Shown here one piece after another: positions 1 to 14,763 of a stretch of DNA of 23,582 nucleotides. The position numbers and the translations under genes are program-made. How positions within the stretch are numbered: position 1 is the first letter of the stretch; each line of letters starts with the position of its first letter. Source of the stretch: a virus (Duplodnaviria > Heunggongvirae > Uroviricota > Caudoviricetes); the IMG/VR virus record IMGVR_UViG_2925908680_000008. The stretch is one strand, 5' to 3'. The notes beneath the pieces are model-generated. The model had not been told where the DNA came from. It worked only from the letters and a program-made list of their open reading frames with translations, and made no database searches.

Positions 1-525
1 TTAATGGGATGATTTTTCCCACTCAGCCAGGGCGTTTAGTCCGGCTTCACTCCAGTTATCCAGCTCATCGGGACAATCACCTGCAACATAGCAGAGCTCA
101 CAACGCAGCATACGAATTGCCAGCCTGGCATTTTCCCGAAAATCATACTGCTCAAAGTAATATTGCCCAGCATAATCCTCAAGGCAGATAGCACCATCAT
201 CAAGAAATTGCACTTCACAGCATAGTTCCCCGGCTGCATCCTGCACACGCTGCTGTATGTCATCGTCCGTTACTGGTGCAGGGATTTTACCGTCTCTGGC
301 CTTAACTGCTTTCCAGAACTCGCCCCACGTCATTTCCAGCGTTCTCTCTGGCCACATTTCAGAAACGGTATCTTTTCCCTGTGCTGGTGGGCTGTTCCGC
401 TGCTCTGTCGCTTCCACATCGATTTTTTTACCGGACATGACCACTTCGCCTTTCTCGATCCAGTCGTAAACTGTCTGGCGGCTTACGCCTTTGTGTTTGG
501 CATATTCTGCCTTGCTCATAAACAT
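1..525 (-). CDS. HTH protein with small-terminase (Nu1/TerS-like) N-terminal domain; candidate packaging or packaging-redirection factor
   Basis: 174 aa; N-terminal MSKAEYAKHKGVSRQTVYDWIEKGEV resembles a TerS/Nu1-type winged HTH; GAGGGGAAG RBS upstream of ATG at 525; last gene of a minus-strand operon. Confidence 0.45.
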   Translation of the reverse strand: MFMSKAEYAKHKGVSRQTVYDWIEKGEVVMSGKKIDVEATEQRNSPPAQGKDTVSEMWPERTLEMTWGEFWKAVKARDGKIPAPVTDDDIQQRVQDAAGELCCEVQFLDDGAICLEDYAGQYYFEQYDFRENARLAIRMLRCELCYVAGDCPDELDNWSEAGLNALAEWEKSSH

Positions 526-695
526 GACACTTCCCCTCAGACTGTATTAATGCGCCGGAAAGCGCGTGTATTTAAATCATCCCAGGAACCGTTGAGCACC
601 AATTAGTTGCGCGAAGTAATCGGCACCAGCGTTCCGAACAATTTCCAACTTAACGTTCTGATCATTGTTTCCTGCTGCAGGGACAATCCCACGAT

Positions 696-1349
696 TCATA
701 GCCAGCGCCCGGATATTTCTTCCAGTTTTTCCAGAGCTGGCTTGCAGGCCGCATCAATAACTTCACGGACCATTCCGGCGAGCTGTTCTTCTTCTGTCGG
801 CGTTGTTACTTCCACACCTGATGGTTTCCCGCCCTTATCCCATACGCCCAACGGTACGAGCGCAACGTGATCGATAAGAAATGGCGTACCCTCAATGAAA
901 AAATTGTCCTCGCCCATTACATCAGGAACTTCTGCCCCACCGGACGCACCACAAAACACAACCGACGGGCTGGTGGATACCTCCCCCCGTGCTTTCTGGA
1001 TGTAATCGATGATTTCCTGCCCGTAAATCCGGCATACGCCCCACACCTCGTCACCGCGAATATACGGCAACATGACGGTGCCAATAATGCGCGACCGTTC
1101 GCCCACGTCTTCAAGGGTTTTGCTTTCGGGATGGTCGATAATGACGGGTACTCCGGCGCAACGTTCCAGGAACTGCGGATTGAGATAAGTTTGCGGTGAA
1201 CGCCAGACAAATTCTTTTTCTTCGGCGCGATAGGCCATTCCGGTTCCTGTGATACGCAGGTTAATCAGCCACATGTTGGAAAACTGATAAGGCGACGGTA
1301 GCTGACCGTCCCGAATCTGCTTTGCCGCCTCAATTTCTGTTAAAAGCAT
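696..1349 (-). CDS. hypothetical protein (217 aa), intact in this copy
   Basis: ATG at 1349 with GGGGGA RBS; protein-like C-terminus; family not recognised. Confidence 0.5.
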   Translation of the reverse strand: MLLTEIEAAKQIRDGQLPSPYQFSNMWLINLRITGTGMAYRAEEKEFVWRSPQTYLNPQFLERCAGVPVIIDHPESKTLEDVGERSRIIGTVMLPYIRGDEVWGVCRIYGQEIIDYIQKARGEVSTSPSVVFCGASGGAEVPDVMGEDNFFIEGTPFLIDHVALVPLGVWDKGGKPSGVEVTTPTEEEQLAGMVREVIDAACKPALEKLEEISGRWL

Positions 1350-1413
1350 AATGTCCCCCGGTTATAAGCAATAAGCCCCACCAAATCCGGCAGGGCTGAA
1401 ATCAGCACGTTTT

Positions 1414-1998
1414 TCATGCCCCCGCGAGGCTTGCAACGTTAATTTTAACCAGGCGACGGGGAGGGATTTTGAAAGCACTAAGCCAGTTATTCGGATCCCC
1501 CTGATATTCAGTAATCCGCCGTCCGGCTTCATCCATTCTTACGGTTTTACGCAAATAGCCCGGCGTATTTTCCACAGCCCACTGAACACTGTCTTTTGCA
1601 GCCTGGTAAATCTGATCTTCCAGCACCGCCAGCGTTGCAGAATCTGAAACGGAACGAATATCCACATCACTGAATTTTTTAGCCAGCTTCTGTGCACCAA
1701 TTAATGCACGCTTGCGGTAATCCATCGACTTTTCACCAGCAAACGGGGCTGGAGCGCGACGGCCCATATTGCTGTATGCGGAATCCGCTTTAGCCTGGGC
1801 TTCTGCCAGTGAGGATTCATCTTCGACTGACGCGACGATGTTTTTATTCGCGTCATCCTCGTCCGCTTTTGTGAAATCCTGTGCGGGGATCGCATTCAGA
1901 ATTTCGATAATCTCCTGCGGAGTGCTGCCCTGCGACTCTGACAGAGCGTTAACCACCTCCATCAGTTTTAATCGCAAATCTTCTTTGCTTGCTGGCAT
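1414..1998 (-). CDS. hypothetical acidic protein (194 aa)
   Basis: ATG at 1998 preceded by GAGGTGG RBS; ORF track start at 2007 is a GTG inside the RBS; family not recognised. Confidence 0.5.
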   Translation of the reverse strand: MPASKEDLRLKLMEVVNALSESQGSTPQEIIEILNAIPAQDFTKADEDDANKNIVASVEDESSLAEAQAKADSAYSNMGRRAPAPFAGEKSMDYRKRALIGAQKLAKKFSDVDIRSVSDSATLAVLEDQIYQAAKDSVQWAVENTPGYLRKTVRMDEAGRRITEYQGDPNNWLSAFKIPPRRLVKINVASLAGA

Positions 1999-2037
1999 TT
2001 TTACCACCTCTCTTTTTTCACCAAAAAATCACGACCA

Positions 2038-2217
2038 TCAGGCCGGACGTTCTACGGGATAAAGCGCCCGCTGCATTAAACGCCGGGCGACCTCATGAAT
2101 GCTCGGAGCAATCCCCAGCGGAGAATTGCGGCGTTCCTCGTCCTGGATGCGCTGTAATGCTTCAATCTGATCACGAGCGAGTAAAACGGGTTTCACGCTG
2201 GCTTTTCTCATAGTCAT
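2038..2217 (-). CDS. small hypothetical protein (59 aa), first gene of terminal operon
   Basis: ATG at 2217 (MTMRKASVK...) preceded by AGGAGA RBS; ORF track start further upstream lacks RBS. Confidence 0.4.
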   Translation of the reverse strand: MTMRKASVKPVLLARDQIEALQRIQDEERRNSPLGIAPSIHEVARRLMQRALYPVERPA

Positions 2218-2346
2218 ATCTCCTGAACAAAACAATGATTATGATTGCACAAACTGAAATAACGATCTACATCATTGCAATTTATGAAACAATAACGCAT
2301 GATGATCGCGTTCTTCCCATTGACTTCAATCACCTGAAAAACAAAG

Positions 2347-2375
2347 CCCGCAACACTTCTGGCTGCGGGTTTTTT
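2347..2375. terminator. hairpin (CCCGCA / TGCGGG, 11-nt loop) followed by T6; U-rich on both strands, possible bidirectional intrinsic terminator
   Basis: Stem-loop read directly from sequence; T-run 2370-2375 on plus, TTTGTTTTT on minus. Confidence 0.45.
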
Positions 2376-2379
2376 ACTG

Positions 2380-2407
2380 GCACAAAAAAGCCGGGAAAAA
2401 TCCCGGC
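2380..2407 (-). terminator. intrinsic terminator downstream of PerC-family gene
   Basis: Minus-strand hairpin GCCGGGA-UUUU-UCCCGGC followed by UUUUUUGUG, immediately after stop at 2413. Confidence 0.6.
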
Positions 2408-2412
2408 CTCCG

Positions 2413-2700
2413 TCACTGACTGCAATTTTTCGATCCAGGGTATTTCCTGAATGCCTTACCATTGGGCTGATGTAATCCCATCCCGGCATGTGCCCGGCTG
2501 ATGGTTTCGCGCATTTCCCCGAAATTATCCTGCCTTGCTGGTGGGCGTGCTGCCTTGCGGATACATTCCGCGCGACGTTTTGCCGCCTGTTCCCGTGCCT
2601 TGTCATCATTCGCCAGCATGATGACCTCAGCCCACCGCGCCGCCGCTCTCCGGTACAGACCACGCGCTTCCAGTGCTTCCGCTTTGCTGTCGTGAATCAT
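2413..2700 (-). CDS. PerC-family transcriptional regulator (PerC homolog, Pch-like)
   Basis: 95 aa; motif KAEALEARGLYRRAAARWAEV matches my recollection of the PerC family signature; start ATG overlaps upstream stop as ATGA. Confidence 0.65.
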   Translation of the reverse strand: MIHDSKAEALEARGLYRRAAARWAEVIMLANDDKAREQAAKRRAECIRKAARPPARQDNFGEMRETISRAHAGMGLHQPNGKAFRKYPGSKNCSQ

Positions 2701-3227
2701 GCGCCTGTTTTCTCCTTTGCTGCCCGGCGCTGACGTTTGCGCTTCTCATTCAGCGCCACCAGCCGCGTTTCTGCGTCCTGTTGTTCCTGTGGTGTCACCT
2801 CGCCGCACGGCTGGCCTTTCAGGTCGTAGCGTACCCCACCAGCCATTAAGGCGCGGTAATAGCGCGGACACTGCGCATAAGATGCCAGCGTCGCACGCAA
2901 TGCCCCTGGACCGAATGCCAGCCCCCTGACGGCGAGATCCTGCATCAGGTCGTCGAATATCCCCACCTTAAGCGGCTTCGGTGCTTCCCGGCTGAATAAT
3001 TCAGGCCACAACTCAGTGAGGCGGTTAACGCGCCTGCGGTTTTTGCGCTGGCGTTTGGTCATATGCCGCCACGGTGTCGCCCCTGTGGGCTTCTGCTGCG
3101 CTTTCTGGTTACCGGGCATCACTTTATGCGCCGATGTGGTTTTATCCTGCTCCTGCGCCGCCTGCGTCGTTTTCTGCGGCGTGCCGTAAATGCCTTTCGG
3201 TTTTCTGTTAATGGTCAGCTTAGTCAT
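2697..3227 (-). CDS. ProQ/FinO-domain RNA-binding protein with basic N-terminal extension
   Basis: PLKVGIFDDL ... LRATLASYAQCPRYYRALMAGGVRYDLKGQPCGEVTPQE closely parallels the ProQ N-terminal FinO-like domain; start taken at ATG 3227 (GGAG RBS), alternative ATG at 3239. Confidence 0.8.
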   Translation of the reverse strand: MTKLTINRKPKGIYGTPQKTTQAAQEQDKTTSAHKVMPGNQKAQQKPTGATPWRHMTKRQRKNRRRVNRLTELWPELFSREAPKPLKVGIFDDLMQDLAVRGLAFGPGALRATLASYAQCPRYYRALMAGGVRYDLKGQPCGEVTPQEQQDAETRLVALNEKRKRQRRAAKEKTGA

Positions 3228-3239
3228 GCTTTGCTCCAT

Positions 3240-3611
3240 CGTTACAACTGTCTACCAACTGTCCACCGATATAATTTATTGATTTATTTGATATTATTTA
3301 CACATAACTAAAAAATAACCTATCAATTGTCTACCAACTGTCTACCGCATTAATACATTGATAATTAATGATTTTTTCAAAATGGTAGACAGAGTAGACA
3401 GTTAAAAGAGAAATTTTAAAAATGAACCCTTAACTATCTGTTTTTTTATATACCCCCCGTGGTTTAGGAATATAGAAACAACTGTCCACTCTCTACCACA
3501 TTTAAAAATATCTATACAATTCAATGCATTAATTGGTAGATGGTTGGTAGAGGATTAAGTATTACTGTCTACCAACCGTCTACCTTTACGTTTCAGCTCA
3601 TAAATTTCGTA
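3240..3611. repeat. iteron-type replication origin with AT-rich unwinding region
   Basis: At least 10 copies of CAACTGTCTACC-like motif in both orientations (e.g. 3245-3267, 3323-3346, 3384-3403, 3479-3497, 3533-3553, 3563-3584) interspersed with AT-rich tracts, directly 3' of the replication gene. Confidence 0.7.
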
Positions 3612-5417
3612 TTATGTTCTGTCGTTAATCCCTGTTGCTGCTGGCAACCAGCTATCAGCATCATCATCTAACAGAACATTTGTTATCACTCGCCCTTTAT
3701 CCTGGCCTTTAGTGCATTTAGCCCGCTTATACTCCTTTCCGTATTCCGCCATAGCACCAGGCATATCAGTGCCAAAGCGTTTCAGTGATACTGGTTTTCC
3801 CAGACCATGCGCTGACATATAGGCTAAATAAGCATGATACAGATATCGCCTCGGGCTAAATGGCACTATTCCCGCATTGCCCACCATCATTCCTTCACAT
3901 TTAACCAACGACATCAGATAGCCGCAAAAGTCCACCAGTGAATCACCCTCACGTTTTATCATCAGAGCCTCTTCTGATTTCTGCTGCTCATATAACAGAC
4001 GTCTGGCTTCATCCTGGTCAGAAAAACGAGTAAGCAGGTGGCGAATAACTACCGCCAGTTCGCCTTCTATTTTTTCCACCAGCATGGGATCGCGTTCGTT
4101 CTCCGGTACGACCTCAGAGAAATTAAATATCACCCTACGACGCGAGATCCCCCCGCTTCGGTCACTGAATGACATGGCGTTATTGTTTACTGCCAGCACT
4201 ACCGCCGGAATACGAGTGGAGTATGGGGCTTTATGTTTCGGGTCGATCGCCACCTTGTCACCACCAGTAATTGCCTTAATTCCTGCACCATCTCCAGCGT
4301 AGCGGGCCATATCCGGCATGATAATCAGCGAAAAGCCAACGACTAACGCGCGTTCCCTTGCGTCTTCCAGCGCCTTCATGCTTGCCGATACTGTATTGAC
4401 CTTACCCGCCAGCATGGTACAAATCTCCGCCATCACACTTTTACCGCTTCCGCCCGGCCCCGTTACCTCAAGGAATAACTGCCAGTCGTACCGGTTCGCC
4501 AGTACCATGAATAATGCCGCCAGTACGCGATCTGCTTTACGATCGTTATTTGCCACCGAACGACGCAGCCACTTCCAGAAATTCGGCGCATGTGTTGCCA
4601 GCGTTTCCCCCTCTGCTGGTGGGCTGAACGGTAATTCACTGGCATTTAACAACCAGTCATTTTTGTTATGCTCCCGAAAATTTCCTGTCCGGGTATCAAA
4701 TACCCCGTTACTGAATCCAATAAGATTCCTGTCTGCCCCGCCCATAACAGGCAGGCTCAATTTCATTGTGTCTACGGCAAATTTAATGGCGTTTTGCGAA
4801 TAACTGATTCCAGCATCAATAAAAATCTTCGCCATAGATCGCTGGAGTTCCTTATCAGATACAGGCTCCCAGACAATTCCGTTGTAATGGTGAACTACAT
4901 CAGAATCGTCATTTATAGCCAGTGCCCTTCCATAATATTCAAGCAATACTTCCCCTCTCTGGCTGGCTCCCATCTGATTTAGTGCTGGCCTGGGTAGGTC
5001 ACTATTTTTTGTGACTAATTTCATCGCTGAAACTTCCCCGCGCTCTGCCTGTTCGCGGATCCGTTGCAGGTAATCGCGCCAGTTCTCCGGCTCCCGGTCG
5101 GTGATGCCTTTGTATAATTTCGCCTCCTGTACGCCAGCCAGTGCCAGTTTTTCAGCGATAGTATTGATCTGGATTGGCTCTATCTCCCCCGCGAGATAGA
5201 CACGCGCAAAGCGGCGTTCATCGTCGACAATGCGGATATTCGCCAGGTCTGCCAGTTGCTTTGGCCCCAGATAAACAGGTGGCACGTTATCGCCGTGTTT
5301 TCGTCCTTCGCTTTCAATCCAGTGTTGAGCATGGGAGTAAGCGTCCGTCCCGGCAAAAATGATTACCTCAGTGAATTTATCCTTCGGCTGATATTTCAAA
5401 TTCGGTGCGTTTTTCAC
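3612..5417 (-). CDS. replication initiation primase/helicase-like protein (P4-family primase C-terminal-type P-loop NTPase)
   Basis: 601 aa; Walker A GPGGSGKS; GTG start at 5417 with GGGAGGT RBS, overlapping upstream stop (GTGA); adjacent iteron origin. Confidence 0.75.
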   Translation of the reverse strand: MKNAPNLKYQPKDKFTEVIIFAGTDAYSHAQHWIESEGRKHGDNVPPVYLGPKQLADLANIRIVDDERRFARVYLAGEIEPIQINTIAEKLALAGVQEAKLYKGITDREPENWRDYLQRIREQAERGEVSAMKLVTKNSDLPRPALNQMGASQRGEVLLEYYGRALAINDDSDVVHHYNGIVWEPVSDKELQRSMAKIFIDAGISYSQNAIKFAVDTMKLSLPVMGGADRNLIGFSNGVFDTRTGNFREHNKNDWLLNASELPFSPPAEGETLATHAPNFWKWLRRSVANNDRKADRVLAALFMVLANRYDWQLFLEVTGPGGSGKSVMAEICTMLAGKVNTVSASMKALEDARERALVVGFSLIIMPDMARYAGDGAGIKAITGGDKVAIDPKHKAPYSTRIPAVVLAVNNNAMSFSDRSGGISRRRVIFNFSEVVPENERDPMLVEKIEGELAVVIRHLLTRFSDQDEARRLLYEQQKSEEALMIKREGDSLVDFCGYLMSLVKCEGMMVGNAGIVPFSPRRYLYHAYLAYMSAHGLGKPVSLKRFGTDMPGAMAEYGKEYKRAKCTKGQDKGRVITNVLLDDDADSWLPAATGINDRT

Positions 5418-5704
5418 TTCTTACCTCCCGCAACCAACATTGCTCGGATTTTTTTAATATTCGTGGCTGCACGTCTCGCCACCGCCTGTTGTTTGTTTTC
5501 CATCAGAATAAAATCACGATCAAACTGACGGCGCGGCATTACGCAGTCATATTCGTAAGCCTCACGGCGGTAGGTGATATTGCCTGGCGTAACGTGACGA
5601 ATAACCACTCGTCCCCCGCGTCTGGTGTCGCGGTAAATATCGCCGTGTCTGATTTCAGGCCGAGCGGGGCCGCTGGCAGTAAAGCCAGAATTTTTCTGTT
5701 TCAT
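5414..5704 (-). CDS. hypothetical basic protein (96 aa), coupled to replication gene
   Basis: ATG at 5704 with AGGAAAA RBS; stop overlaps start of downstream gene. Confidence 0.5.
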   Translation of the reverse strand: MKQKNSGFTASGPARPEIRHGDIYRDTRRGGRVVIRHVTPGNITYRREAYEYDCVMPRRQFDRDFILMENKQQAVARRAATNIKKIRAMLVAGGKK

Positions 5705-5708
5705 GGTT

Positions 5709-5909
5709 TTATTTTCCTGTCAGCAGTTCCGGTTTTATTTCCGCACGAATACAGAGTTCAGAAAAAAATTCAGGAGAACCAACAATCTCATTACTTTTCA
5801 GTCGGCATTGTGATTTCACTTTTCCTTTATCCAGGTAAACCAGTATGCGTCCGGTGAAATCATCTGGCGCACTCAGGGTAATTGTCATTGTTGCTTGCTG
5901 ATTATCCAT
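5709..5909 (-). CDS. hypothetical protein (66 aa)
   Basis: ATG overlaps upstream stop (ATGGATAA); tight operon arrangement. Confidence 0.45.
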   Translation of the reverse strand: MDNQQATMTITLSAPDDFTGRILVYLDKGKVKSQCRLKSNEIVGSPEFFSELCIRAEIKPELLTGK

Positions 5910-6267
5910 AATTCACCCCCTGAATAACCTGATAACCGCAACTGGTCAGCAATTCGATAAATTCCGGCAGTGTTCCGAAACAGCAATCATCTCGCAGCCG
6001 TTCTCGGGATACTTCAACGCCGTTTTCGTAGTGACTCACCATGCGTCCGGTAAAATGCAAATCATCATCGTGATGGCACGTTGACGGTTTAATCAGTCGC
6101 GCACGCTCTGCCAGTTCCAGCAATGCTTCAACACTTCCGGCAATTGCACCATCCGGCAGGTGGTAATTACGCACTATGCGCCCGTTCTCCACATGGACCA
6201 GTAGCTGCCCGGTAAATATCTCGTCAAACTGAATGCTGTTAAGGTCAGAAATTGACAGGTTATGCAT
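5902..6267 (-). CDS. hypothetical protein (121 aa)
   Basis: ATG at 6267 overlaps upstream stop (ATGCATAA). Confidence 0.5.
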   Translation of the reverse strand: MHNLSISDLNSIQFDEIFTGQLLVHVENGRIVRNYHLPDGAIAGSVEALLELAERARLIKPSTCHHDDDLHFTGRMVSHYENGVEVSRERLRDDCCFGTLPEFIELLTSCGYQVIQGVNYG

Positions 6268-6625
6268 GGTGCACCTCCTGGCGAATACGGGCAGCGAATA
6301 CCATCACGCAGCCATCAGGAGATTGCTGGCGTGCTTCCTGTTCGCTGGTGGCCTCGATGTGAATTACACGCGGTTGTGCCGTACTCAGGGCGATAAAACG
6401 CCAGATAAAATTGTTCTCGCATTTCTGAATAAACAGCGTGTTTTCTTCGCGCCCTTTCCATGTTGCCGAGATATAGCCCATGTCATTGAGCATCTCGCAG
6501 GCATCAACCAGCGTATCGGCGGCTACGTGTACAGTGTTTTTACCGTCAGCTATGCAATCACGGTGCACCGCCAGGAAGGTGTATATAAATTTAGGGTGAG
6601 TTTGGGTATGCTGTGTTCCAGCCAT
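6260..6625 (-). CDS. hypothetical protein (121 aa), first gene of replication operon
   Basis: ATG at 6625 (MAGTQHT...) with GAGGT RBS; E. coli-like codon usage, unlike the antisense read-through upstream. Confidence 0.5.
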   Translation of the reverse strand: MAGTQHTQTHPKFIYTFLAVHRDCIADGKNTVHVAADTLVDACEMLNDMGYISATWKGREENTLFIQKCENNFIWRFIALSTAQPRVIHIEATSEQEARQQSPDGCVMVFAARIRQEVHHA

Positions 6626-6812
6626 AATCGTTACCTCGTTTAACGGTTTGGTTAGACGCCCCGCTACTGCCGCAAACAGTTCGGGGCGTTGTCGTTTACA
6701 TCCTCTTACTGAGGTGTGATTTAAATTAAATTCAACTGAATCACAGGTCAAGTATTTTTTGTGATTCTTTTTTGTGTATACTGAATCACATCTTTTGTTT
6801 AGGAGAATGCAC
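6626..6812. promoter_or_regulatory. divergent promoter/operator region between replication operon and small regulator gene
   Basis: CTGAATCACA direct repeats at 6737-6746 and 6781-6790 with inverted TGTGATTC between; TATACT -10-like hexamer at 6777-6782; AGGAGA RBS at 6801-6806; 8-bp stem hairpin around 6650-6690. Confidence 0.5.
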
Positions 6813-7118
6813 ATGGCAAAAAACACTATCAACGACAAATCAAAACAGATTTCAATTCGTATCCCACATGATGCTTTTGATGGCATGGAATCCGTAAAAC
6901 TGGACGGCGAAAGCAACGCCGGATTCATAGTAACCGCCATGCGCGGTGAGATCGCCCGCCGCCAGGCAGAAGGAAGAGGAGAAAACCCCCTGGTTTCTTC
7001 GCTCGATGCACTGGCGCAGGTGGAAAAAATCGGTGTCAAAGCTGCCGAGGAGATCGGGCAACTCGTCACCGTCGCGCGTGAAGAACTCCAGCGACGCAAG
7101 GTCAAAGAGCAGGAATAG
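6813..7118 (+). CDS. putative ribbon-helix-helix DNA-binding regulator (candidate island repressor)
   Basis: 101 aa from ATG 6813 with AGGAGA RBS; ISIRIPHDAFDGMESVKL...NAGFIVTAMRGEIARR has a strand-helix-helix pattern; family assignment is by eye only. Confidence 0.45.
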   Translation: MAKNTINDKSKQISIRIPHDAFDGMESVKLDGESNAGFIVTAMRGEIARRQAEGRGENPLVSSLDALAQVEKIGVKAAEEIGQLVTVAREELQRRKVKEQE

Positions 7119-7175
7119 CCACTATCAGCGCCATAGTTTGAGGAACGCAGGCGCATTGCTTTACAGGACAGCACC

Positions 7176-7355
7176 ATGAGCGACACAGAATCAACCAAAA
7201 CACCATCACCAACTCGTAAGAGACGACGCAAAAATATAGCGCATGAACATGAATCAGAAAGATTCGCACCTTGTTCGTTTGCTCTTGAGAAATTCCTTAA
7301 AGAGCACAGGAAAAAGCTCTCGTTGCAAACCTTGGAACGAACCAAATCTGACTGA
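7176..7355 (+). CDS. small basic hypothetical protein (59 aa)
   Basis: ATG 7176, stop TGA 7353-7355; below ORF-track cutoff; RKRRRK basic patch. Confidence 0.3.
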   Translation: MSDTESTKTPSPTRKRRRKNIAHEHESERFAPCSFALEKFLKEHRKKLSLQTLERTKSD

Positions 7356-7756
7356 TCACATTGCCCACCAGCCGCAAATGTGGCATTGTTGGTGATGCGT
7401 TCAAGTTTGATTTGCCGTAATACCCACTGGCGACCCTCTGCGGTCGCCTTTGTTTTATCCAGAACGAAATCAGACATCAGATTGATCAGCACCTGGCGAC
7501 CTGACAAAATCGTATCGGTCGCGCCACCAGCAAAATTTTTTGCTTTCCGGACGATGTGGCCAACGGTATTTTGCAGCAAAATATTCTGCATTTCTGGCGT
7601 GCTGTGGCGACGGTGATCAGCGCCTTCACATTGAACGAACTTGTCGCTAAAATTCACCCACATAGCAAACATCGCGGTGCTGTAGGTAATTCGTTCACAA
7701 AGGCGCTCCGGCAACGGGGCGCTTTCTCTTTTTGTAACGGTCAGAGCGTTACACAT
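7355..7756 (-). CDS. hypothetical protein coupled to ant; 3' end undefined (no in-frame stop)
   Basis: ATG 7756 overlaps ant stop (ATGTGTAA) with GGAGGAAAA RBS; good codon usage for ~134 codons, then frame continues stop-free to 6260. Confidence 0.4.
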
Positions 7757-8549
7757 GGCTGTTTTCCTCCATGCGACGGGCTAACCAACGCTGCGAAAGA
7801 CGAATTAATTCAGCTTTCCGCTGGTGGTAGTCCTGGCCTAACTCAATCAGCGTGATATTGCTCCGCTCAAGGTAAGAAAGGTGCTCAAGCTGCAACGTGC
7901 TCATGTGGTCGCGTGGTTCACCTGTGATGCCGTTCGCCTGCGCCCACTGTTTTGCAGTCATGCCACCCAGCACGATACGCGCCAGCATATTGGCTTCCGT
8001 GGTGTAGTGGTGCTGTAGAGTGTTTTTACCCAGTTCAGTCCGGTACGCCTCCAGCGCGGCGCACATCGGCTTAAAGTAGCTGGCAACGGTGATACGGGCT
8101 TTCAGTTCCCTGCGTAACGCTGCGGAACGCACTGGCGCTACCTTGTGTAGCTCCTCCTCGCATTTGATGAAGTACTGACGAACGGCACGGCCCTGTTCGG
8201 TGCGTTCGACCATCGCCAGTTCTTTTGCCATGTTCACGGTGATGATGTACTCAAGAGCGGTTTGCTGGCGAGATTTTGCGCTCACCGGATCGGGTCGGCT
8301 CAAATATTCAACAACTTCATAATCCACGCCTTCCGTGAAGCCGTATTCTTCAATGCGCCCCTTGATCCACGAACGGAAAACGCGCCCTACACCTAACGCC
8401 TTATGCAACGCTCTGGCGCTAACAATATTGGTTTCACGCCCGCCAATAACGCCGGAAATAACCGGGATAATTTCGCCAAAATTTTGCAGATTCTGGTTTT
8501 CAGGCCGAACGAAGCCCTGCCCCTGTACGGGCGTTTTTCGCAGTTTCAT
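7749..8549 (-). CDS. phage antirepressor-like protein (AntA/Rha-like domain)
   Basis: 266 aa; TNIVSARALHKALGVGRVFRSWIKGRIEEYGFTEGVDYEV resembles the AntA/Rha antirepressor domain; AGGAG RBS. Confidence 0.6.
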   Translation of the reverse strand: MKLRKTPVQGQGFVRPENQNLQNFGEIIPVISGVIGGRETNIVSARALHKALGVGRVFRSWIKGRIEEYGFTEGVDYEVVEYLSRPDPVSAKSRQQTALEYIITVNMAKELAMVERTEQGRAVRQYFIKCEEELHKVAPVRSAALRRELKARITVASYFKPMCAALEAYRTELGKNTLQHHYTTEANMLARIVLGGMTAKQWAQANGITGEPRDHMSTLQLEHLSYLERSNITLIELGQDYHQRKAELIRLSQRWLARRMEENSHV

Positions 8550-8627
8550 AAAAACTCCTGCTATCGAATTAAGTTACTTTTATTTGCTGGTGGATAGCTG
8601 GGGGCTTCTGGCCCCGTAGCCATTTAA

Positions 8628-8825
8628 TCAGGTAGCTGTTCCGCGTGATTCAGCAATACGCTGATTAATCCACTCGTCAATTTCACTCTCAACGAAAGCA
8701 ATAGCTCGCGAGCCAATTTTAACTGATGCAGGAAATTTACCTTGCCCCATAAGGCGATAAATCCATGCCTTGCTATATCCAGTTCTACGCTGAACTTCTG
8801 TTAAACGAATAAGCGTATTTGACAT
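8628..8825 (-). CDS. alpA: AlpA-family (Phage_AlpA/Vis-like) transcriptional regulator/excisionase-type HTH protein
   Basis: 65 aa; IRLTEVQRRTGYSKAWIYRLMGQGKFP...ESEIDEWINQR aligns with the AlpA pattern. Confidence 0.85.
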   Translation of the reverse strand: MSNTLIRLTEVQRRTGYSKAWIYRLMGQGKFPASVKIGSRAIAFVESEIDEWINQRIAESRGTAT

Positions 8826-8893
8826 ATATTTACCTCATAACGTCTACTCAATTTGACGAGGTAATCCTGGCACAGAAATAACGAATATTTTCA

Positions 8894-9070
8894 TACCCTC
8901 AGGCCTAATGGTTACCGGAAGGAAATTAACCCTAAGGGTGATGGTAATCGGAAGGAAATTAACCCTAAGGGTGATGGTAATCGGGAGGAAATCTACCCTA
9001 AGGGTGATGGTAAAATTGACGGGGAAGATAAAAAAATACCCTCAGGGTAACAGTAAATCACCCTCAGGGT
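8894..9070. promoter_or_regulatory. operator-like repeat array upstream of alpA: three tandem 33-bp repeats plus two extra palindromic sites
   Basis: 33-bp units at 8908-8940, 8941-8973, 8974-9006; motif ACCCT-N-AGGGT at 8929-8939, 8962-8972, 8995-9005, 9038-9048, 9060-9070. Confidence 0.55.
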
Positions 9071-9085
9071 ATGCGGTATGGTGCG

Positions 9086-9883
9086 TTAATCCGGCTTTGC
9101 GTTCTTTTGGCTGTTGTCTCGGTTAATAGGGCAGGCAGTCCTCTCTATGAGCGTTGCAAGTGCATTACTTGCCCCCCACTGCTTAAGCTCCCTGGTTATC
9201 GCTTCTTGATTTCCCCTGGTGGCAAAATCATTTTCTGGATCGTAATTGGCCCACTCTCTGTTTCTAATCTCAATAGCCTTAGCTAATGGGTCTTTATCCC
9301 AGTATTTATATAAGTGTATCGGGCGCTCTTGCTCTAACTGCTCTATCCTTGCCCTTAACTCTGCGTTTTCTTTTTCCAGCATTGCGATTTGGGATAATAA
9401 ATCATCCTCTGTACGCAACTCTTTCTTTTCAATATCGCGTCCTTGTGCCTCGTCATTTTCAGAAGAGTTAGCGCCTTCCAGCTTCGTTAACGCGTCAAGG
9501 ACATCGGGAAAAATTGCGAAAATTTCACCCCTTATAAATCCAATGTTCTCAAATTCGGGATCTTCCCAATAACCGGACACCAGAAAACCATTTTCATCCC
9601 TCTCACCAGGTAAACAACCACGTTTCCGAACCGCATTCAGATTTCTATAAAGAACATCATAATCAAATTCATCCCGATACGGGTTACAAAAAGATTCCAA
9701 CAGCTTAAATTCATTTACTGTGTACAGGCGGATATGTTCTCCGCTTATTCTCCTGAGTATCCAAGTTATGACATCTGAAACATCATAATCATCACCAGCG
9801 ACCTTAAGCACGACCTCAAGAAATTCACGTAAAGAAATAAAATCTTTTTTGTATTCGTTTAATTCGGCATGAATATCAATCAT
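9086..9883 (-). CDS. uncharacterised cargo protein (265 aa) with central coiled-coil segment
   Basis: ATG 9883 with GAGGTG RBS (ORF track start at 9889 is GTG); appears AT-richer than neighbours by eye; LEKENAELRARIEQLEQER heptad-like stretch; no recognised catalytic motif. Confidence 0.55.
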   Translation of the reverse strand: MIDIHAELNEYKKDFISLREFLEVVLKVAGDDYDVSDVITWILRRISGEHIRLYTVNEFKLLESFCNPYRDEFDYDVLYRNLNAVRKRGCLPGERDENGFLVSGYWEDPEFENIGFIRGEIFAIFPDVLDALTKLEGANSSENDEAQGRDIEKKELRTEDDLLSQIAMLEKENAELRARIEQLEQERPIHLYKYWDKDPLAKAIEIRNREWANYDPENDFATRGNQEAITRELKQWGASNALATLIERTACPINRDNSQKNAKPD

Positions 9884-10011
9884 ACGCACACCTCAGCGTC
9901 CTCTACTGTAGTGGCTGTACCAGTCCGTCGAGGTGTACGGATTTTCGGGAGCGACCCTAGACACAGCCTTTTCTTTCGTCGCTCAAAGTCTACTACTGTA
10001 TACGCAACCAG

Positions 10012-11226
10012 TCATCCACATTTTCCGAACTTGCCATGCACCACGTTACCGCCATGCTCGAGCGAATCCATATAGTCGGCATACCACTGGAGCATCTCCC
10101 GGCGACCATCCAGATATTGCGCATGGTTGTATGTGCCACGAATTGAGTTTTTATCGACGTGTGCGAGCTGCGTCTCTATCCACGCGGTGTTATAGCCCTG
10201 CTCATGCAAAATGGTGCTCATGGTGTGCCGGAATCCATGACCAGTAACGCGCCCGGCATAGCCGATACGACGAATGAGCACATTCATCGCCATTTCACTC
10301 ATTGGCTTACTGTGGTGAATACGACCGGGGAAAATAAACTGATACTGGCCTGTCATGTTTTTTAACTGCTCCAGTATTTTTATTGCCTGTTCTGGTAATG
10401 GCACGCAATGCGGACGGCGCATCTTCATTCGTTCTTTAGGCACTTCCCACAAACGATTATCAAAATCGATCTCCTGCCATTCTGCCTGCCGTAATTCCCC
10501 GGGTCTGACACCTGTCAGAATTAATAGCCGCATTGCCAGTTTGACGATCTGGCTTCCGGTGTACGTATTAAAAACGCGGAAAAATTCCGGCAGTTCGTCG
10601 GCCTTCAAATAGGCGTAATGCTCTTTTTTATGTGGAGCAAATGCGCTCACCAGATCAGGGGCTGGATTATATTCGGCGCGTCCGGTGATGATTGCGTACC
10701 GGAACACCTCGCCGCATCGCTGGCGAACCTTACGCAATTTTTCAGTCGCACCACGGTCATTAAGACGGGAAAGAACCGCCAGCAATTCCATCGGCTTAAT
10801 TTCTGCGATCGGCCTACCGCCAATGTACGGAAAAACATCTTTTTCAAACGTCTCGATCATTTCCTCGGCGTATGACGATGACCACCTGTCGATCCGCTTT
10901 TCGTACCATTCGCGAGCAATACCCTCAAAAGTATTGCCAAATTTGCTCGCCTGTTCTCGCTTTTGGGCTTTTCTGGCCTCACTTGGATTTATACCACCAG
11001 CAAGAAGCCTTTTAGCCTCATCCCTTGCCGCCCTGGCATCAGACAGGGACACATCAGGGTACACACCCAACGACAACATTTTGGGCTTTCCTGCAAACCT
11101 GTAGCGCAGTCGCCACCCTTTCGAACCGTTCGGCTCAATGAGCAACGAAAGCCCGTTACCGTCATTGAGTGTATAAGCCTTTTCTTTCGGCTTCGCGCGC
11201 CTGATGGCAAGGTCTGAAAGCAGCAT
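10012..11226 (-). CDS. int: P4-type tyrosine integrase (site-specific recombinase)
   Basis: 404 aa from ATG 11226 with GGAG RBS; N-terminal LSDLAIRRAKPKEKAYTLNDGNGLSLLI... typical of P4-family integrases; C-terminal HGFRHT and Y-containing catalytic region. Confidence 0.9.
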   Translation of the reverse strand: MLLSDLAIRRAKPKEKAYTLNDGNGLSLLIEPNGSKGWRLRYRFAGKPKMLSLGVYPDVSLSDARAARDEAKRLLAGGINPSEARKAQKREQASKFGNTFEGIAREWYEKRIDRWSSSYAEEMIETFEKDVFPYIGGRPIAEIKPMELLAVLSRLNDRGATEKLRKVRQRCGEVFRYAIITGRAEYNPAPDLVSAFAPHKKEHYAYLKADELPEFFRVFNTYTGSQIVKLAMRLLILTGVRPGELRQAEWQEIDFDNRLWEVPKERMKMRRPHCVPLPEQAIKILEQLKNMTGQYQFIFPGRIHHSKPMSEMAMNVLIRRIGYAGRVTGHGFRHTMSTILHEQGYNTAWIETQLAHVDKNSIRGTYNHAQYLDGRREMLQWYADYMDSLEHGGNVVHGKFGKCG

Positions 11227-11873
11227 GTGTATAGCTCCAAAAAATAAATTTTGTCCTATACGCATTACTATACACTTCTGTGTGTAGATTCTGGTAGTTG
11301 TGAGTAGACGTTAATGAACTATGAAAATGGCTGGAAGACTTGATATTCGTGGGTTTGATGGACTTTAGTAGACGTTGAGAAATGTTTGTTTGGAGCGGGC
11401 GAAGGGAACAATACAACAAGCCACAAGACCAGTAGTAAAGGCACATTCGCGAGTTCTAAAATAGATTCTATACACATTTCTATACACATTTATCACTCGC
11501 TTGGGAATTACACATCCCCTGTTATCCGTGATCAAGCTGGTGGATGATCACGGATAACCGATATGGGAATCCCCATATCGGCATCGCGTAGTTAATCGTA
11601 GTGGCTACCGTAGTAGTTGAGTAGCAGGATGTAACCTGCCAGGAAGGAAATGATCGGTCGTAACTCGCCACCACCAGCCACAGAACGCAAATTTGCGTCG
11701 TCGGATATATCAACAACTTAGCACAAAAATAAGTCAGGCAGATACAAACCTCAAATTTGAGGTTTGCTTGTTTATCAACGGGTAAGGATAATCATCTCCC
11801 CTTTAAAGTCCCTTCGAAGGGTTACCCGTAGGCTTAATGTAAGGCTTGGCTGTAGCCTTACCGAACGCTCCGC
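11227..11873. other. int-upstream / att-proximal region with direct repeats and perfect palindromes (att core not identified)
   Basis: CTATAC(A/G)C repeats at 11266-11290 and 11466-11492; AGTAGACGTT twice; 14-bp-arm inverted repeat 11521-11558; 10-bp-arm palindrome 11558-11581; 22-bp perfect palindrome 11745-11766. Confidence 0.4.
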
Positions 11874-12053
11874 TCACCGTCGCGGCCTGTCCGGTTTCTT
11901 CCACTGATACGGCCTCACATCATCCTGCTGGTGGCGTTCCTGTTGCAGCACAACGGAAACAGGCGCTGAACACCTGTTAATTTTGCTTGCAGGTTGTTTG
12001 ATTCCGGCAATGCTGCGGATCATCTCCAGCATATCGGCTTCGGTGATGGTCAT
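11874..12053 (-). CDS. small hypothetical protein (59 aa) in junction
   Basis: Hand-translated: ATG 12053 with AAGGTG RBS, stop TGA 11874-11876; MTITEADMLEMIRSIAGIKQ...; not in ORF track (under 60 aa). Confidence 0.35.
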   Translation of the reverse strand: MTITEADMLEMIRSIAGIKQPASKINRCSAPVSVVLQQERHQQDDVRPYQWKKPDRPRR

Positions 12054-12079
12054 GATTTACACCTTAGGAAATCTTAGGG

Positions 12080-12345
12080 GCTGGTTGACACTTTCCGGCT
12101 TAAGACCTTAACAAATCTTAACATCGCAGGTTGACACACTTGACACTTTTTCGCGAAAAACCTTATCAAACCTTAGCATTTCTAAGCATGGCAACTTGAC
12201 ACTTTTCGCGATTTTTTCGGCTTTTTGACGTGGTAAATCTGGCGCAAAGCCAGTAACGGCGGGGTTTACAGCGAGGTTGACACTTTTTCGCGTTCAGAGT
12301 GTAAAGTGTCAACCCGGCAGACGGCCTGACTTGACACTTTTCGCG
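12080..12345. repeat. array of TTGACAC(TTTTCGCG) repeats between small junction ORF and TerS-like gene 3' end
   Basis: TTGACAC at 12085, 12131, 12140, 12196, 12277, 12331 plus inverted GTGTCAA at 12306; four copies share TTGACACTTTT(T)CGCG. Confidence 0.6.
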
Positions 12346-12358
12346 AATTTTACGGTCA

Positions 12359-12883
12359 TTAATGGGATGATTTTTCCCACTCAGCCAGGGCGTTTAGTCC
12401 GGCTTCACTCCAGTTATCCAGCTCATCGGGACAATCACCTGCAACATAGCAGAGCTCACAACGCAGCATACGAATTGCCAGCCTGGCATTTTCCCGAAAA
12501 TCATACTGCTCAAAGTAATATTGCCCAGCATAATCCTCAAGGCAGATAGCACCATCATCAAGAAATTGCACTTCACAGCATAGTTCCCCGGCTGCATCCT
12601 GCACACGCTGCTGTATGTCATCGTCCGTTACTGGTGCAGGGATTTTACCGTCTCTGGCCTTAACTGCTTTCCAGAACTCGCCCCACGTCATTTCCAGCGT
12701 TCTCTCTGGCCACATTTCAGAAACGGTATCTTTTCCCTGTGCTGGTGGGCTGTTCCGCTGCTCTGTCGCTTCCACATCGATTTTTTTACCGGACATGACC
12801 ACTTCGCCTTTCTCGATCCAGTCGTAAACTGTCTGGCGGCTTACGCCTTTGTGTTTGGCATATTCTGCCTTGCTCATAAACAT
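12359..12883 (-). CDS. TerS-like HTH protein (copy 2)
   Basis: Identical 174-aa translation to 1-525. Confidence 0.45.
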   Translation of the reverse strand: MFMSKAEYAKHKGVSRQTVYDWIEKGEVVMSGKKIDVEATEQRNSPPAQGKDTVSEMWPERTLEMTWGEFWKAVKARDGKIPAPVTDDDIQQRVQDAAGELCCEVQFLDDGAICLEDYAGQYYFEQYDFRENARLAIRMLRCELCYVAGDCPDELDNWSEAGLNALAEWEKSSH

Positions 12884-13053
12884 GACACTTCCCCTCAGAC
12901 TGTATTAATGCGCCGGAAAGCGCGTGTATTTAAATCATCCCAGGAACCGTTGAGCACCAATTAGTTGCGCGAAGTAATCGGCACCAGCGTTCCGAACAAT
13001 TTCCAACTTAACGTTCTGATCATTGTTTCCTGCTGCAGGGACAATCCCACGAT

Positions 13054-13706: not shown

Positions 13707-13770
13707 AATGTCCCCCGGTTATAAGCAATAAGCCCCACCAAATCCGGCAGGGCTGAAATCAGCACGTTTT

Positions 13771-14355: not shown

Positions 14356-14393
14356 TTTTACCACCTCTCTTTTTTCACCAAAAATCACGACCA

Positions 14394-14573
14394 TCAGGCC
14401 GGACGTTCTACGGGATAAAGCGCCCGCTGCATTAAACGCCGGGCGACCTCATGAATGCTCGGAGCAATCCCCAGCGGAGAATTGCGGCGTTCCTCGTCCT
14501 GGATGCGCTGTAATGCTTCAATCTGATCACGAGCGAGTAAAACGGGTTTCACGCTGGCTTTTCTCATAGTCAT
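14394..14573 (-). CDS. small hypothetical protein (59 aa), copy 2
   Basis: Duplicate of 2038-2217. Confidence 0.4.
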   Translation of the reverse strand: MTMRKASVKPVLLARDQIEALQRIQDEERRNSPLGIAPSIHEVARRLMQRALYPVERPA

Positions 14574-14735: not shown

Positions 14736-14763
14736 GCACAAAAAAGCCGGGAAAAATCCCGGC
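14736..14763 (-). terminator. intrinsic terminator after PerC-family gene, copy 2
   Basis: Duplicate of 2380-2407. Confidence 0.6.

What the first reader, a model, noticed from the sequence alone, without database searches (positions are those of the whole stretch)
1..12358. Very high density of Chi octamers (GCTGGTGG) across the element
Counted by eye per unit: plus-strand GCTGGTGG at 383, 2537, 4615, 6344, 7820, 8586, 11536, 11927, and minus-strand (CCACCAGC on plus) at 2756, 2836, 7365, 7524, 10994, 11671. That is 14 in about 12.4 kb, against roughly 0.4 expected for a random octamer and roughly one per 4-5 kb as the E. coli average. Chi attenuates RecBCD degradation of linear DNA, so enrichment on both strands would protect a satellite entering cells as linear DNA. 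It may be partly codon-driven (CTG-GTG).
Basis: partly seen in the sequence, partly recalled or inferred. Interest (0 to 1): 0.55.

Follow-up and report, generated by a model that had tools for sequence, protein, structure and literature searches.

The report
Chi-saturated phage satellite of E. coli
A small E. coli phage satellite carries the RecBCD "stop-degrading, start-recombining" signal Chi about six times more densely than its host chromosome, on both strands and not because of codon usage. Related satellites share this, which suggests they rely on the host's own repair enzyme instead of encoding an inhibitor or a recombinase.

Summary
Each 12.36-kb unit has 16 Chi octamers (9 plus, 7 minus), not 14, and the whole window has 29. 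The window is 1.9 head-to-tail copies of an excised PICI-type satellite that sits at a tRNA-Gly gene in E. coli U90.

[quoted passage not shown] The 100 kb of flanking chromosome has 0.13 per kb, E. coli K-12 about 0.22, and the Chi-rich phages LLS and P1 about 0.54.

Codon-preserving shuffles give 0.4-1.8 Chi in the coding DNA against 10 observed (0 of 3000 shuffles reach it). Chi occupies 59% of the positions where the proteins allow it, against 8% in host genes. Five sites are in unannotated DNA.

Eighteen close relatives and six other E. coli PICI/cf-PICI islands are also Chi-dense on both strands. P4 and two P4-like satellites have none.

No recombinase or RecBCD inhibitor was detected. 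The best reading is that this is a satellite version of the known "no Rec module, high Chi" strategy, but denser and bidirectional, as in P1. The stage at which Chi acts (DNA entry or concatemer formation) is inferred, not shown. I rate it a new variant of a known kind, with moderate to high interest.

The parts
1..12358 (.). One complete unit of the satellite: the excised, circularly permuted form of the island at NZ_CP068035.1 4120649-4133024.
   Evidence: It is 100% identical to the E. coli U90 island. The repeat period is 12,356-12,358 bp.
12359..23582 (.). Second, partial copy of the unit. It holds 13 Chi at the same relative positions: plus strand 12741, 13326, 14893, 16971, 18700, 20176, 20942; minus strand 15112, 15192, 16432, 19721, 19880, 23350.
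383..390 (+). Chi, antisense to the HTH/TerS-like gene, phase 0.
969..976 (+). Chi, antisense to the DUF2213 gene.
2537..2544 (+). Chi, antisense to the PerC gene.
2756..2763 (-). Chi, sense strand of the ProQ/FinO gene, phase 2.
2836..2843 (-). Chi, sense strand of the ProQ/FinO gene, phase 0.
4076..4083 (-). Chi, sense strand of the primase gene.
4615..4622 (+). Chi, antisense to the primase gene. Conserved in distant PICIs L102-L103.
6344..6351 (+). Chi, antisense to the Icd-like gene. Conserved in most relatives.
7365..7372 (-). Chi in DNA without an annotated gene (inside the long ORF 6260-7756).
7524..7531 (-). Chi in DNA without an annotated gene (inside the long ORF 6260-7756).
7820..7827 (+). 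Chi, antisense to the AntA gene.
8586..8593 (+). Chi in the intergenic spacer between the AntA and AlpA-like genes.
10994..11001 (-). Chi, sense strand of the integrase gene.
11536..11543 (+). Chi in non-coding DNA, in the loop of a perfect 14-bp-stem hairpin (11521-11558).
11671..11678 (-). Chi in non-coding DNA.
11927..11934 (+). Chi, antisense to the 59-aa ORF 11874-12053.
11390..11408 (.). attP core: the 19-bp overlap where the two ends of the integrated island join. It shows that the window is an excised circle or concatemer.
   Evidence: In 79 complete genomes the two halves of the junction always lie apart.
10012..11226 (-). Tyrosine integrase.
8628..8825 (-). AlpA-like HTH excisionase/regulator.
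3612..5417 (-). Primase (replicase). It is the only DNA-metabolism protein detected. No recombinase or RecBCD inhibitor was found anywhere in the unit.
696..1998 (-). DUF2213 protein and a 194-aa protein. Together they are a split homologue of a single head protein of Rac-like phages.

Best explanation
The element is a PICI-type phage satellite with no recombination module and no RecBCD inhibitor. It has accumulated Chi sites under selection, all around its genome and in both orientations. As a result, RecBCD loading at any double-strand end, moving in either direction, meets a correctly oriented Chi after about 0.9-1.5 kb on average.

At Chi, RecBCD stops destroying DNA and loads RecA. This step is established biochemistry. 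Satellite DNA with free ends is therefore preserved and fed into host homologous recombination rather than digested.

Free ends arise in two situations. One is the concatemers or rolling-circle tails that lambdoid or HK97-type terminases need as packaging substrate. The other is the linear molecule injected into a new cell, which must re-circularise or recombine. Which of these dominates is inferred, not shown.

Density is higher than in Chi-rich phages because the genome is small. With roughly 30% recognition per Chi (my knowledge of the RecBCD literature), 9 and 7 sites leave only 4-8% of enzymes crossing a whole unit unconverted. At host density about 62% would cross.
For: Shown here:
1. 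There are 16 Chi per 12.36 kb, and Chi is the top octamer.
2. It is not a codon effect. Three codon-preserving nulls give 0.4-1.8 against 10 observed, with 0 of 3000 shuffles reaching 10. Of the 17 positions where the proteins allow a synonymous Chi, 10 (59%) carry one, against 6 of 74 (8%) in host flank ORFs. The sites fall in all phases and on both strands, and 5 are outside any annotated gene.
3. It is a family trait.
- 18 close relatives have 0.58-1.24 per kb on both strands.
- Six other E. coli PICI/cf-PICI islands with different replication and capsid modules have 0.75-1.19 per kb, and Chi is the top octamer in each.
- In three of those islands most Chi lie in DNA with no similarity to this unit.
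4. Retention exceeds background. 176 of 209 aligned Chi are conserved, against about 144 expected from all octamers. In the most diverged relatives it is 22 of 35 against about 13 (derived).
5. No recombinase, Gam or Abc-type hit appears in any encoded protein.
6. P4 and two P4-like satellites have zero Chi.
7. The window itself is a concatemer.

From the literature:
- Rec-less lambdoid phages and P1 are Chi-rich and benefit from or require RecBCD. In them too Chi is the top octamer and TGCTGGTG is second (PMC12315714).
- P1, which needs host recombination of its terminal repeats to circularise (PMC12315714; that it is packaged by headfuls is my recollection), also has Chi on both strands, 30 plus and 18 minus.
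Against: - No experiment exists. Dependence on RecBCD is inferred by analogy.
- The packaging mode is unknown. No lambda cosN is present, the TerS-like assignment rests only on an N-terminal HTH, and no sequence is shared with the candidate helper's packaging region.
- Capsid-forming PICIs with HNH/P27-type terminases (taken here, from general knowledge, to package by cos) are equally Chi-dense and bidirectional. Terminal redundancy therefore cannot be the whole story.
- Six small or unknown ORFs could hide an unrecognised RecBCD inhibitor.
- Variable modules in relatives are less enriched (0.46 per kb).
- Citrobacter and Pantoea relatives of the capsid module have only 0.41 and 0.16 per kb.
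- The islands sampled were found through similarity to this element and are not an independent sample.
Confidence: 0.65

Rival explanations
1. The excess is a by-product of codon usage or base composition (CTG-GTG and similar), with no selection on Chi itself.
For: Chi contains the commonest Leu codon. Order-5 and order-6 Markov models predict 5 and 12.9, but those models already contain the Chi heptamers, so they are circular.
Against: - Codon-preserving shuffles give at most 1.8 on average against 10 observed, with 0 of 3000 reaching 10.
- 59% of the synonymous opportunities are used, against 8% in the host.
- The sites are in all three phases, and 6 of the 10 in the tested coding genes (7 of 11 counting the 59-aa ORF) are antisense to the genes.
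- Five sites are outside annotated genes.
- P4, a satellite of the same host, has none.
Confidence: 0.02
2. The satellite has passively drifted towards host chromosome composition through long residence, or carries host-derived DNA.
For: It is a chromosomal resident. Bobay et al. found that Rec-less prophages have about host density, 0.2 per kb (PMC3784561).
Against: - Density is 6-10 times that of the host.
- Host Chi in the flanks is almost all on one strand (12 of 13), whereas the satellite has 9 and 7.
- There is no replichore-like polarity around the likely origin (checked by hand against the positions).
Confidence: 0.03
3. Chi spreads by biased gene conversion. A broken Chi-minus copy is degraded past the site and repaired from a Chi-plus homologue, while a Chi-plus copy is preserved. 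Chi would then drive itself to high frequency in multicopy, often-broken, often-recombining satellites without necessarily benefiting them.
For: - This is an inference from the known RecBCD mechanism.
- The relatives are mosaic and several related islands coexist in one genome, up to 7 places in U90.
- The backbone is more enriched than recently swapped modules.
Against: - It does not explain why P4-like satellites, which are also widespread in E. coli genomes, have none.
- It still needs RecBCD to act on satellite ends, so it overlaps the main explanation rather than replacing it.
Confidence: 0.1
4. The main benefit is avoiding CRISPR spacer acquisition, or otherwise marking the DNA as self. 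Chi limits the RecBCD degradation products that feed adaptation.
For: A review states that RecBCD products feed CRISPR adaptation (PMC8791490, citing Levy 2015). Dense bidirectional Chi would minimise such products.
Against: - E. coli CRISPR adaptation is usually silent (my knowledge).
- It does not explain the difference between PICI and P4.
- It is a side effect of the same biochemical event.
Confidence: 0.07
5. Chi sites serve mainly as recombination hotspots that promote module exchange between satellites, increasing evolvability or allowing rescue by resident islands when attB is occupied.
For: The relatives are strongly mosaic, with 37-90% of the unit aligned. Many genomes carry several related islands.
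Against: - It is a second-order benefit.
- Chi spacing is indistinguishable from random, with no clustering. Whether Chi sit at module borders was not tested.
- It gives no explanation for the density needed.
Confidence: 0.08

Closest known systems
[quoted passage not shown] 2013, PMC3784561)
   Same: - No recombinase or RecBCD inhibitor was detected.
- Chi far exceeds expectation and host density.
[quoted passage not shown]
- The excess is not explained by codon usage.
   Different: - This is a 12-kb satellite, not a lambdoid phage.
- Density is 2.4 times higher (1 per 0.77 kb against 1 per 1.86 kb).
- The sites are on both strands (9 and 7) and spread around the genome. LLS has 20 of 23 in one orientation, clustered at the right end.
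- Growth dependence on RecBCD is untested.
Phage P1
   Same: It is Chi-rich on both strands, 30 plus and 18 minus in OP279344. It depends on host RecA/RecBCD to recombine its terminal repeats and circularise (PMC12315714).
   Different: - P1 is an 88-95 kb phage-plasmid with 0.54 Chi per kb, half of them within 17 kb of lox. It also has Cre-lox.
- The satellite is 2.4 times denser with dispersed sites.
- Its packaging mode is unknown.
[quoted passage not shown]
   Same: In both cases Chi rescues a replicon that lacks a RecBCD inhibitor. It does so by stopping degradation and allowing concatemers to form.
   Different: Those are laboratory constructs with one or a few Chi. Here a natural element has 16.
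Satellite P4 and P4-like islands
   Same: They are E. coli phage satellites of similar size with an integrase, an Icd-like gene and a primase.
   Different: They have zero Chi. P2/P4 packaging uses monomeric circles (my knowledge), so neither concatemers nor recombination are needed.
E. coli chromosome Chi distribution
   Same: Same octamer and same enzyme.
   Different: The chromosome has about 0.2 per kb, strongly skewed to one strand per replichore. In the flanks 12 of 13 are on one strand. The satellite is 6-10 times denser with no polarity.

Membership tests
PICI-type phage satellite (Gram-negative phage-inducible chromosomal island) | Tyrosine integrase at one end and site-specific insertion with a short att repeat. 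| tested here: met
   The integrase is at 10012-11226. The 19-bp att core is at 11390-11408, next to tRNA-Gly in U90.
PICI-type phage satellite (Gram-negative phage-inducible chromosomal island) | AlpA-like regulator/excisionase next to int. | tested here: met
   The HTH protein at 8628-8825 hits the excisionase/regulator PHROGs. The Rfam int-alpA RNA lies at 9900-9967.
PICI-type phage satellite (Gram-negative phage-inducible chromosomal island) | Own primase/replicase module. | tested here: met
   The primase at 3612-5417 hits phrog_864 with E = 4e-155. The origin was not located; the iteron cluster at 12085-12339 is a candidate.
PICI-type phage satellite (Gram-negative phage-inducible chromosomal island) | About 10-15 kb, with no complete set of virion or lysis genes. 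| tested here: met
   The unit is 12.36 kb, with no capsid, tail, terminase large subunit or lysis hits.
PICI-type phage satellite (Gram-negative phage-inducible chromosomal island) | Genes that redirect helper packaging or capsid size. | tested here: inconclusive
   DUF2213 plus the 194-aa protein form a split homologue of a Rac-like phage head protein. The TerS-like call rests on an HTH only.
PICI-type phage satellite (Gram-negative phage-inducible chromosomal island) | Induction by, and high-frequency transfer with, a helper phage. | not testable with these tools
   The only indirect evidence is that the window is an excised concatemer.
[quoted passage not shown] 2025) | No recombination module and no RecBCD inhibitor. 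| tested here: met
   There are no such hits in Pfam, PHROGs or the RefSeq annotation. Caveat: six small or unknown ORFs cannot be excluded.
[quoted passage not shown] 2025) | Chi far above chance and host density, and the most frequent octamer. | tested here: met
[quoted passage not shown] 2025) | Chi overwhelmingly in one orientation relative to cos and concentrated near one end. | tested here: not met
   There are 9 plus and 7 minus sites, interleaved (+++---++--++-+-+). Spacing is indistinguishable from random.
[quoted passage not shown] 2025) | Lambdoid phage genome. | tested here: not met
   It is a satellite, not a phage.
[quoted passage not shown] 2025) | Growth or propagation enhanced by RecBCD. 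| not testable with these tools
   This needs transfer assays in rec mutants.
P1-like strategy (terminally redundant linear DNA circularised by host RecA/RecBCD, Chi on both strands) | Chi abundant on both strands. | tested here: met
   The satellite has 9 and 7. P1 has 30 and 18.
P1-like strategy (terminally redundant linear DNA circularised by host RecA/RecBCD, Chi on both strands) | Headful packaging with terminal redundancy. | tested here: inconclusive
   No cosN was found, but there is no firm TerS or pac site either. Virion DNA ends are unknown.

The most novel reading that the evidence does not exclude
PICI and capsid-forming PICI satellites of E. coli, as a class, have evolved the densest and only fully bidirectional Chi load yet described for an E. 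coli replicon. It would be an inhibitor-free way of turning RecBCD from a destroyer into a helper at every free DNA end. This lets them do without a Rec module and avoids setting off host systems that guard RecBCD against inhibitors. P4-like satellites, which never need concatemers, stay Chi-free. If so, Chi content would predict a satellite's replication and packaging lifestyle. The same logic should hold for the host-specific Chi of satellites in other bacteria.
Probability: 0.4. Interest if true: 0.75.

Novelty: new variant of a known kind. Interest (0 to 1): 0.6.

Why it matters
RecBCD is the main destroyer of linear foreign DNA in E. coli. Mobile elements are thought either to inhibit it or, as shown for some lambdoid phages in 2025, to load themselves with Chi.

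This finding extends the second strategy to phage satellites, in a more extreme and differently organised form. Density is 2.4 times that of LLS and P1, both orientations are used, and the sites are dispersed. It also reveals a clean split between PICI-type satellites (Chi-dense) and P4-type satellites (Chi-free).

This gives a directly testable handle on how satellites survive transfer and make packageable DNA without their own recombination genes. It offers a simple sequence signature for classifying satellites. It also has a practical side: PICI-based DNA delivery vehicles may depend on these sites. I found no paper reporting this in the searchable library, and the 2025 paper does not mention satellites.

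Tried and rejected
- Lambda cosN (GGGCGGCGACCT, up to 2 mismatches): absent.
- TerS identity of the 174-aa HTH protein: only the first 42 residues match a TerS PHROG. It has no similarity to the Rac-SA53 TerS and no PDB relative. I therefore dropped a purely headful-circularisation explanation. The equal Chi density of cf-PICIs with HNH/P27-type terminases, taken to be cos packagers, also argues against it.
- Shared pac or cos DNA with the candidate helper: none. The only similarity is in the DUF2213/scaffold genes.
- Replichore-like polarity of Chi around the likely origin next to the primase gene: none, by inspection of the positions.
- Even spacing or clustering of Chi: indistinguishable from random.
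- Source of the window: the exact attP junction is absent from IMG/VR and JGI metagenome contigs. It is never contiguous in complete E. coli genomes.
- No match of the unit in the phage collection, and only module-sized matches in plasmids.
- The P1 genome paper (PMC523184) is not held, so I counted P1 Chi directly.
- The hairpin that holds Chi 11536 in its loop was noted but not pursued. RecBCD reads Chi as unwound single strand, so a structural role is unlikely.
Full report
WHAT THE WINDOW IS

The window is 1.9 head-to-tail copies of a unit of 12,356-12,358 bp. The copies differ only by two one-base indels. One unit is 100% identical to an island in the chromosome of E. coli strain U90 (NZ_CP068035.1 4120649-4133024), inserted next to a tRNA-Gly gene.

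The window is circularly permuted relative to that island. The two island ends meet at a 19-bp overlap, window 11390-11408, which is the att core. In 79 complete E. coli genomes that hold either half of this junction, the halves are never contiguous. The window therefore represents an excised circle or concatemer, not the integrated form.

Gene content is almost all on the minus strand:
- integrase and an AlpA-like HTH, with the Rfam int-alpA RNA between them;
- an AntA-family protein and an Icd-like protein;
- DUF4222 and a primase;
- ProQ/FinO and PerC;
- a DUF2213 protein and an HTH protein with weak TerS-like similarity;
- several small unknown ORFs.

This is the organisation of a PICI-type phage satellite. 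No capsid, tail, large terminase or lysis gene is present. No recombinase, exonuclease or RecBCD inhibitor was detected.

CHECKING THE OBSERVATION

Two were missed, 969 (+) and 4076 (-). One unit therefore has 16 Chi, 9 on the plus strand and 7 on the minus, and the window has 29.

- Dinucleotide-preserving shuffles of the window give a mean of 0.76 and at most 4.
- Markov models of order 0-4 predict 0.2-2.4 per unit.
- Chi is the most frequent of all octamers in the unit. The second, TGCTGGTG (9 copies), overlaps Chi.
- Density is 1.29 per kb.
- The 100 kb flanking the island in U90 holds 13 Chi (0.13 per kb), 12 of them on one strand.
- E. coli K-12 has 1008 Chi in 4.6 Mb (PMC12315714).
- At host density the Poisson probability of 16 or more in one unit is 2.8e-8.

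IS IT CODON-DRIVEN?

No. Fifteen annotated genes (9.1 kb) hold 10 of the 16 sites. I ran three nulls that keep the proteins or the codons:
- Synonymous shuffle within each gene: mean 1.80.
- Codon permutation within each gene: mean 0.40.
- Synonymous resampling from pooled codon usage: mean 0.99.
None of the 3000 replicates of any null reached 10.

The sites lie in all three codon phases. Four are on the sense strand and six on the antisense strand. One further site is antisense to a 59-aa ORF, and five are in DNA with no annotated gene.

A more direct measure is the number of positions where the amino-acid sequence would allow Chi by synonymous choice. The satellite's genes have 17 such positions, and 10 (59%) carry Chi. 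In long ORFs of the host flanks the figure is 6 of 74 (8%). The enrichment therefore sits largely at synonymous and non-coding positions, which is the signature of selection on the DNA motif itself.

IS IT A PROPERTY OF THE FAMILY?

Close relatives. Eighteen IMG/VR contigs of 10-15 kb encode the same DUF2213 protein (91-100% identity). They carry 0.58-1.24 Chi per kb, split about evenly between strands.

Other island types. Six further E. coli islands share only parts of the primase/Icd backbone and have different replication and capsid modules.
- They comprise one island with a ClpP-protease/capsid fusion, three capsid-forming PICIs with their own terminase, portal, protease and capsid genes, one island with large unknown proteins, and one degraded remnant.
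- They have 0.75-1.19 Chi per kb on both strands, and Chi is the top octamer in every one.
- In the three analysed in detail, only 4-5 of the 12-14 Chi lie in DNA alignable to this unit, so most were acquired independently.

Retention. Where relatives align, Chi is retained more often than an average octamer. Across relatives 176 of 209 are retained, against about 144 expected. In the most diverged relatives it is 22 of 35, against about 13 expected (derived). These sequences are related, so I attach no p-value.

Caveats:
- Internal modules without homology to this unit are less enriched (0.46 per kb against 1.24 for the shared backbone).
- Satellites of Citrobacter and Pantoea that share only the capsid module have 0.41 and 0.16 per kb.
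- All the islands were found by similarity to this one.

CONTRASTS

P4 has no Chi at all. Neither do two P4-like islands, one of which is only 81% identical to P4. Being a satellite is therefore not sufficient.

The DUF2213 protein and its 194-aa neighbour are a split homologue of one head protein of Rac-like lambdoid phages (phrog_6216; Rac-SA53 "TolA/nudix"). This points to that phage type as helper. Those phages have Chi at about host density: Rac-SA53 has 8 in about 49 kb, and 62 IMG/VR loci have 0.14-0.65 per kb. In them Chi lies almost exclusively on one strand. The satellite is several times denser than its likely helper and differs in using both strands.

COMPARISON WITH WHAT IS KNOWN

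Bobay et al. (2013, PMC3784561) and especially Zheng et al. (2025, PMC12315714) showed that lambdoid phages fall into two groups. One group encodes a Rec module plus a RecBCD inhibitor and lacks Chi. The other lacks a Rec module and is Chi-rich.

The type phage LLS has these properties:
- 23 Chi, one per 1.86 kb;
- 20 of the 23 in the orientation active for RecBCD entering the free right end after cos cleavage;
- better growth with RecBCD.

P1 has one Chi per 1.9 kb and needs RecA/RecBCD to recombine its terminal repeats. In both LLS and P1 Chi is the top octamer and TGCTGGTG the second, exactly as here.

Neither paper mentions satellites. Five full-text searches found nothing on Chi in PICIs or satellites.

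I counted Chi in a P1 genome (OP279344). It has 48 sites, 30 plus and 18 minus, at 0.54 per kb. P1, like the satellite and unlike LLS, uses both orientations.

HOW IT MOST LIKELY WORKS

Established: RecBCD loads on double-strand ends, degrades DNA until it meets Chi from the 3' side, and then loads RecA.

Shown here: the satellite has no detectable Rec module or inhibitor. It has Chi in both orientations all round the circle. Spacing is indistinguishable from random, and the strand order is +++---++--++-+-+. The mean distance from a random break to the next active Chi is 0.9 kb in one direction and 1.5 kb in the other.

Inferred: any free end of satellite DNA is quickly converted from a degradation substrate into a recombination substrate. 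If recognition is about 30% per site (my knowledge), only 4-8% of RecBCD molecules would cross one whole unit unconverted. At host density about 62% would. This explains why a 12-kb genome needs a higher density than a 45-kb phage to reach a similar number of active sites per genome.

Two stages could supply the selection.
- In the induced cell, lambdoid and HK97-type terminases need concatemers. Concatemers arise either by rolling-circle replication, whose tail RecBCD attacks, or by RecA/RecBCD recombination of circles.
- In the recipient cell, the injected linear DNA has two free ends.

P2/P4 packaging starts from monomeric circles (my knowledge), which would explain why P4-like satellites are Chi-free. 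The resemblance to P1 and the use of both strands favour a situation with ends in either orientation, such as permuted ends, either-direction rolling circles or random breaks. I could not determine the packaging mode. cf-PICIs with HNH/P27-type terminases, which I take to be cos packagers, show the same pattern. I therefore commit to the general mechanism (confidence about 0.65) and not to one stage.

RIVALS

- Codon or composition artefact: refuted.
- Passive drift to host composition: contradicted by the 6-10-fold excess and the lack of strand polarity.
- Chi-biased gene conversion, avoidance of CRISPR adaptation, and promotion of module exchange are all possible contributors. Each depends on the same RecBCD-Chi event, and none explains the PICI/P4 split better.

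VERDICT

The codon caveat is refuted. The RecBCD interpretation is the best supported, though untested experimentally. The element is an ordinary PICI-type satellite in its gene content.

What is new is the Chi load. It is a satellite version of a recently recognised phage strategy, about 2.4 times denser than LLS or P1, bidirectional, shared by PICI and cf-PICI islands of E. coli, and absent from P4-like satellites. I rate it a new variant of a known kind, with interest 0.6.

Noticed in passing
window 11390-11408 and the whole window: The window is a head-to-tail concatemer joined at the attP core. The joined junction is absent from all complete E. coli genomes searched and from the IMG/VR and JGI contigs. 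The two copies differ only by two one-base indels, as a long-read assembly of a replicating or packaged concatemer would.
   Followed up: partly
window 12085-12339: Six exact copies of TTGACACTT, one inverted, lie in 255 bp just 3' of the HTH/TerS-like gene. This iteron cluster could be the replication origin or the packaging site. In two other PICI islands (L102, L103) the P4 ori repeat GGTGAACA plays the analogous role of second most common octamer.
   Followed up: partly
window 11521-11581: Chi 11536 sits in the 10-nt loop of a perfect 14-bp-stem hairpin (GTTATCCGTGATCA...TGATCACGGATAAC). A second 10-bp-stem hairpin follows directly. Its function is unknown, and the region is variable among relatives.
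   Followed up: no
window 696-1998 (minus strand); L106 29273-30565: The DUF2213 protein and the adjacent 194-aa protein match the N- and C-terminal parts of one head protein of Rac-like lambdoid phages (phrog_6216, 54% identity). This is the only DNA similarity between the satellite and such phages. It is a likely capsid-remodelling module and a pointer to the helper phage type.
   Followed up: partly
L106 (Rac-SA53) and L040-L101: Rac-like phages carry Chi almost only on the strand of their late genes: 8 of 8 in the phage part of Rac-SA53, and typically 4-10 against 0-1 in 62 IMG/VR loci. Rac-SA53 nevertheless encodes RecE/RecT. This is a Rec-plus phage with oriented Chi.
   Followed up: no
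window 6260-7756 (minus strand): An uninterrupted 498-codon ORF extends 276 codons upstream of the annotated start of the Icd-like gene. The extension has no family hit, carries two Chi, and overlaps the YlcI gene on the other strand.
   Followed up: partly
window 9900-9967 (minus strand): This is a match to the Rfam int-alpA RNA (RF02996, 45.5 bits, above the gathering score), located between the integrase gene and the 265-aa ORF.
   Followed up: no
window 8893-9013: An imperfect direct repeat offset by about 35 bp (89.5% over 86 bp) lies between the AlpA-like gene and the 265-aa ORF.
   Followed up: no
L102 10299-10332, L103 10926-10959, L104 9881-9914: Other PICI islands share a conserved back-to-back Chi pair, GCTGGTGG-N18-CCACCAGC, at the 5' end of their ssb genes.
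   Followed up: no
window 8594-10993: This is the longest Chi-free stretch of the unit (2.4 kb). It coincides with the low-GC region (0.43-0.45) around the 265-aa unknown ORF, which may be recently acquired cargo.
   Followed up: no
L105 (P4), L107, L108: P4 and two P4-like islands contain no Chi at all. The whole 17-kb and 22-kb loci fetched around the two islands also have none.
   Followed up: yes
L004, L005: Satellites of Citrobacter sp. NCU1 and Pantoea stewartii share the capsid module (hyp57, hyp194, DUF2213), but their other modules differ. They have only 0.41 and 0.16 Chi per kb.
   Followed up: partly
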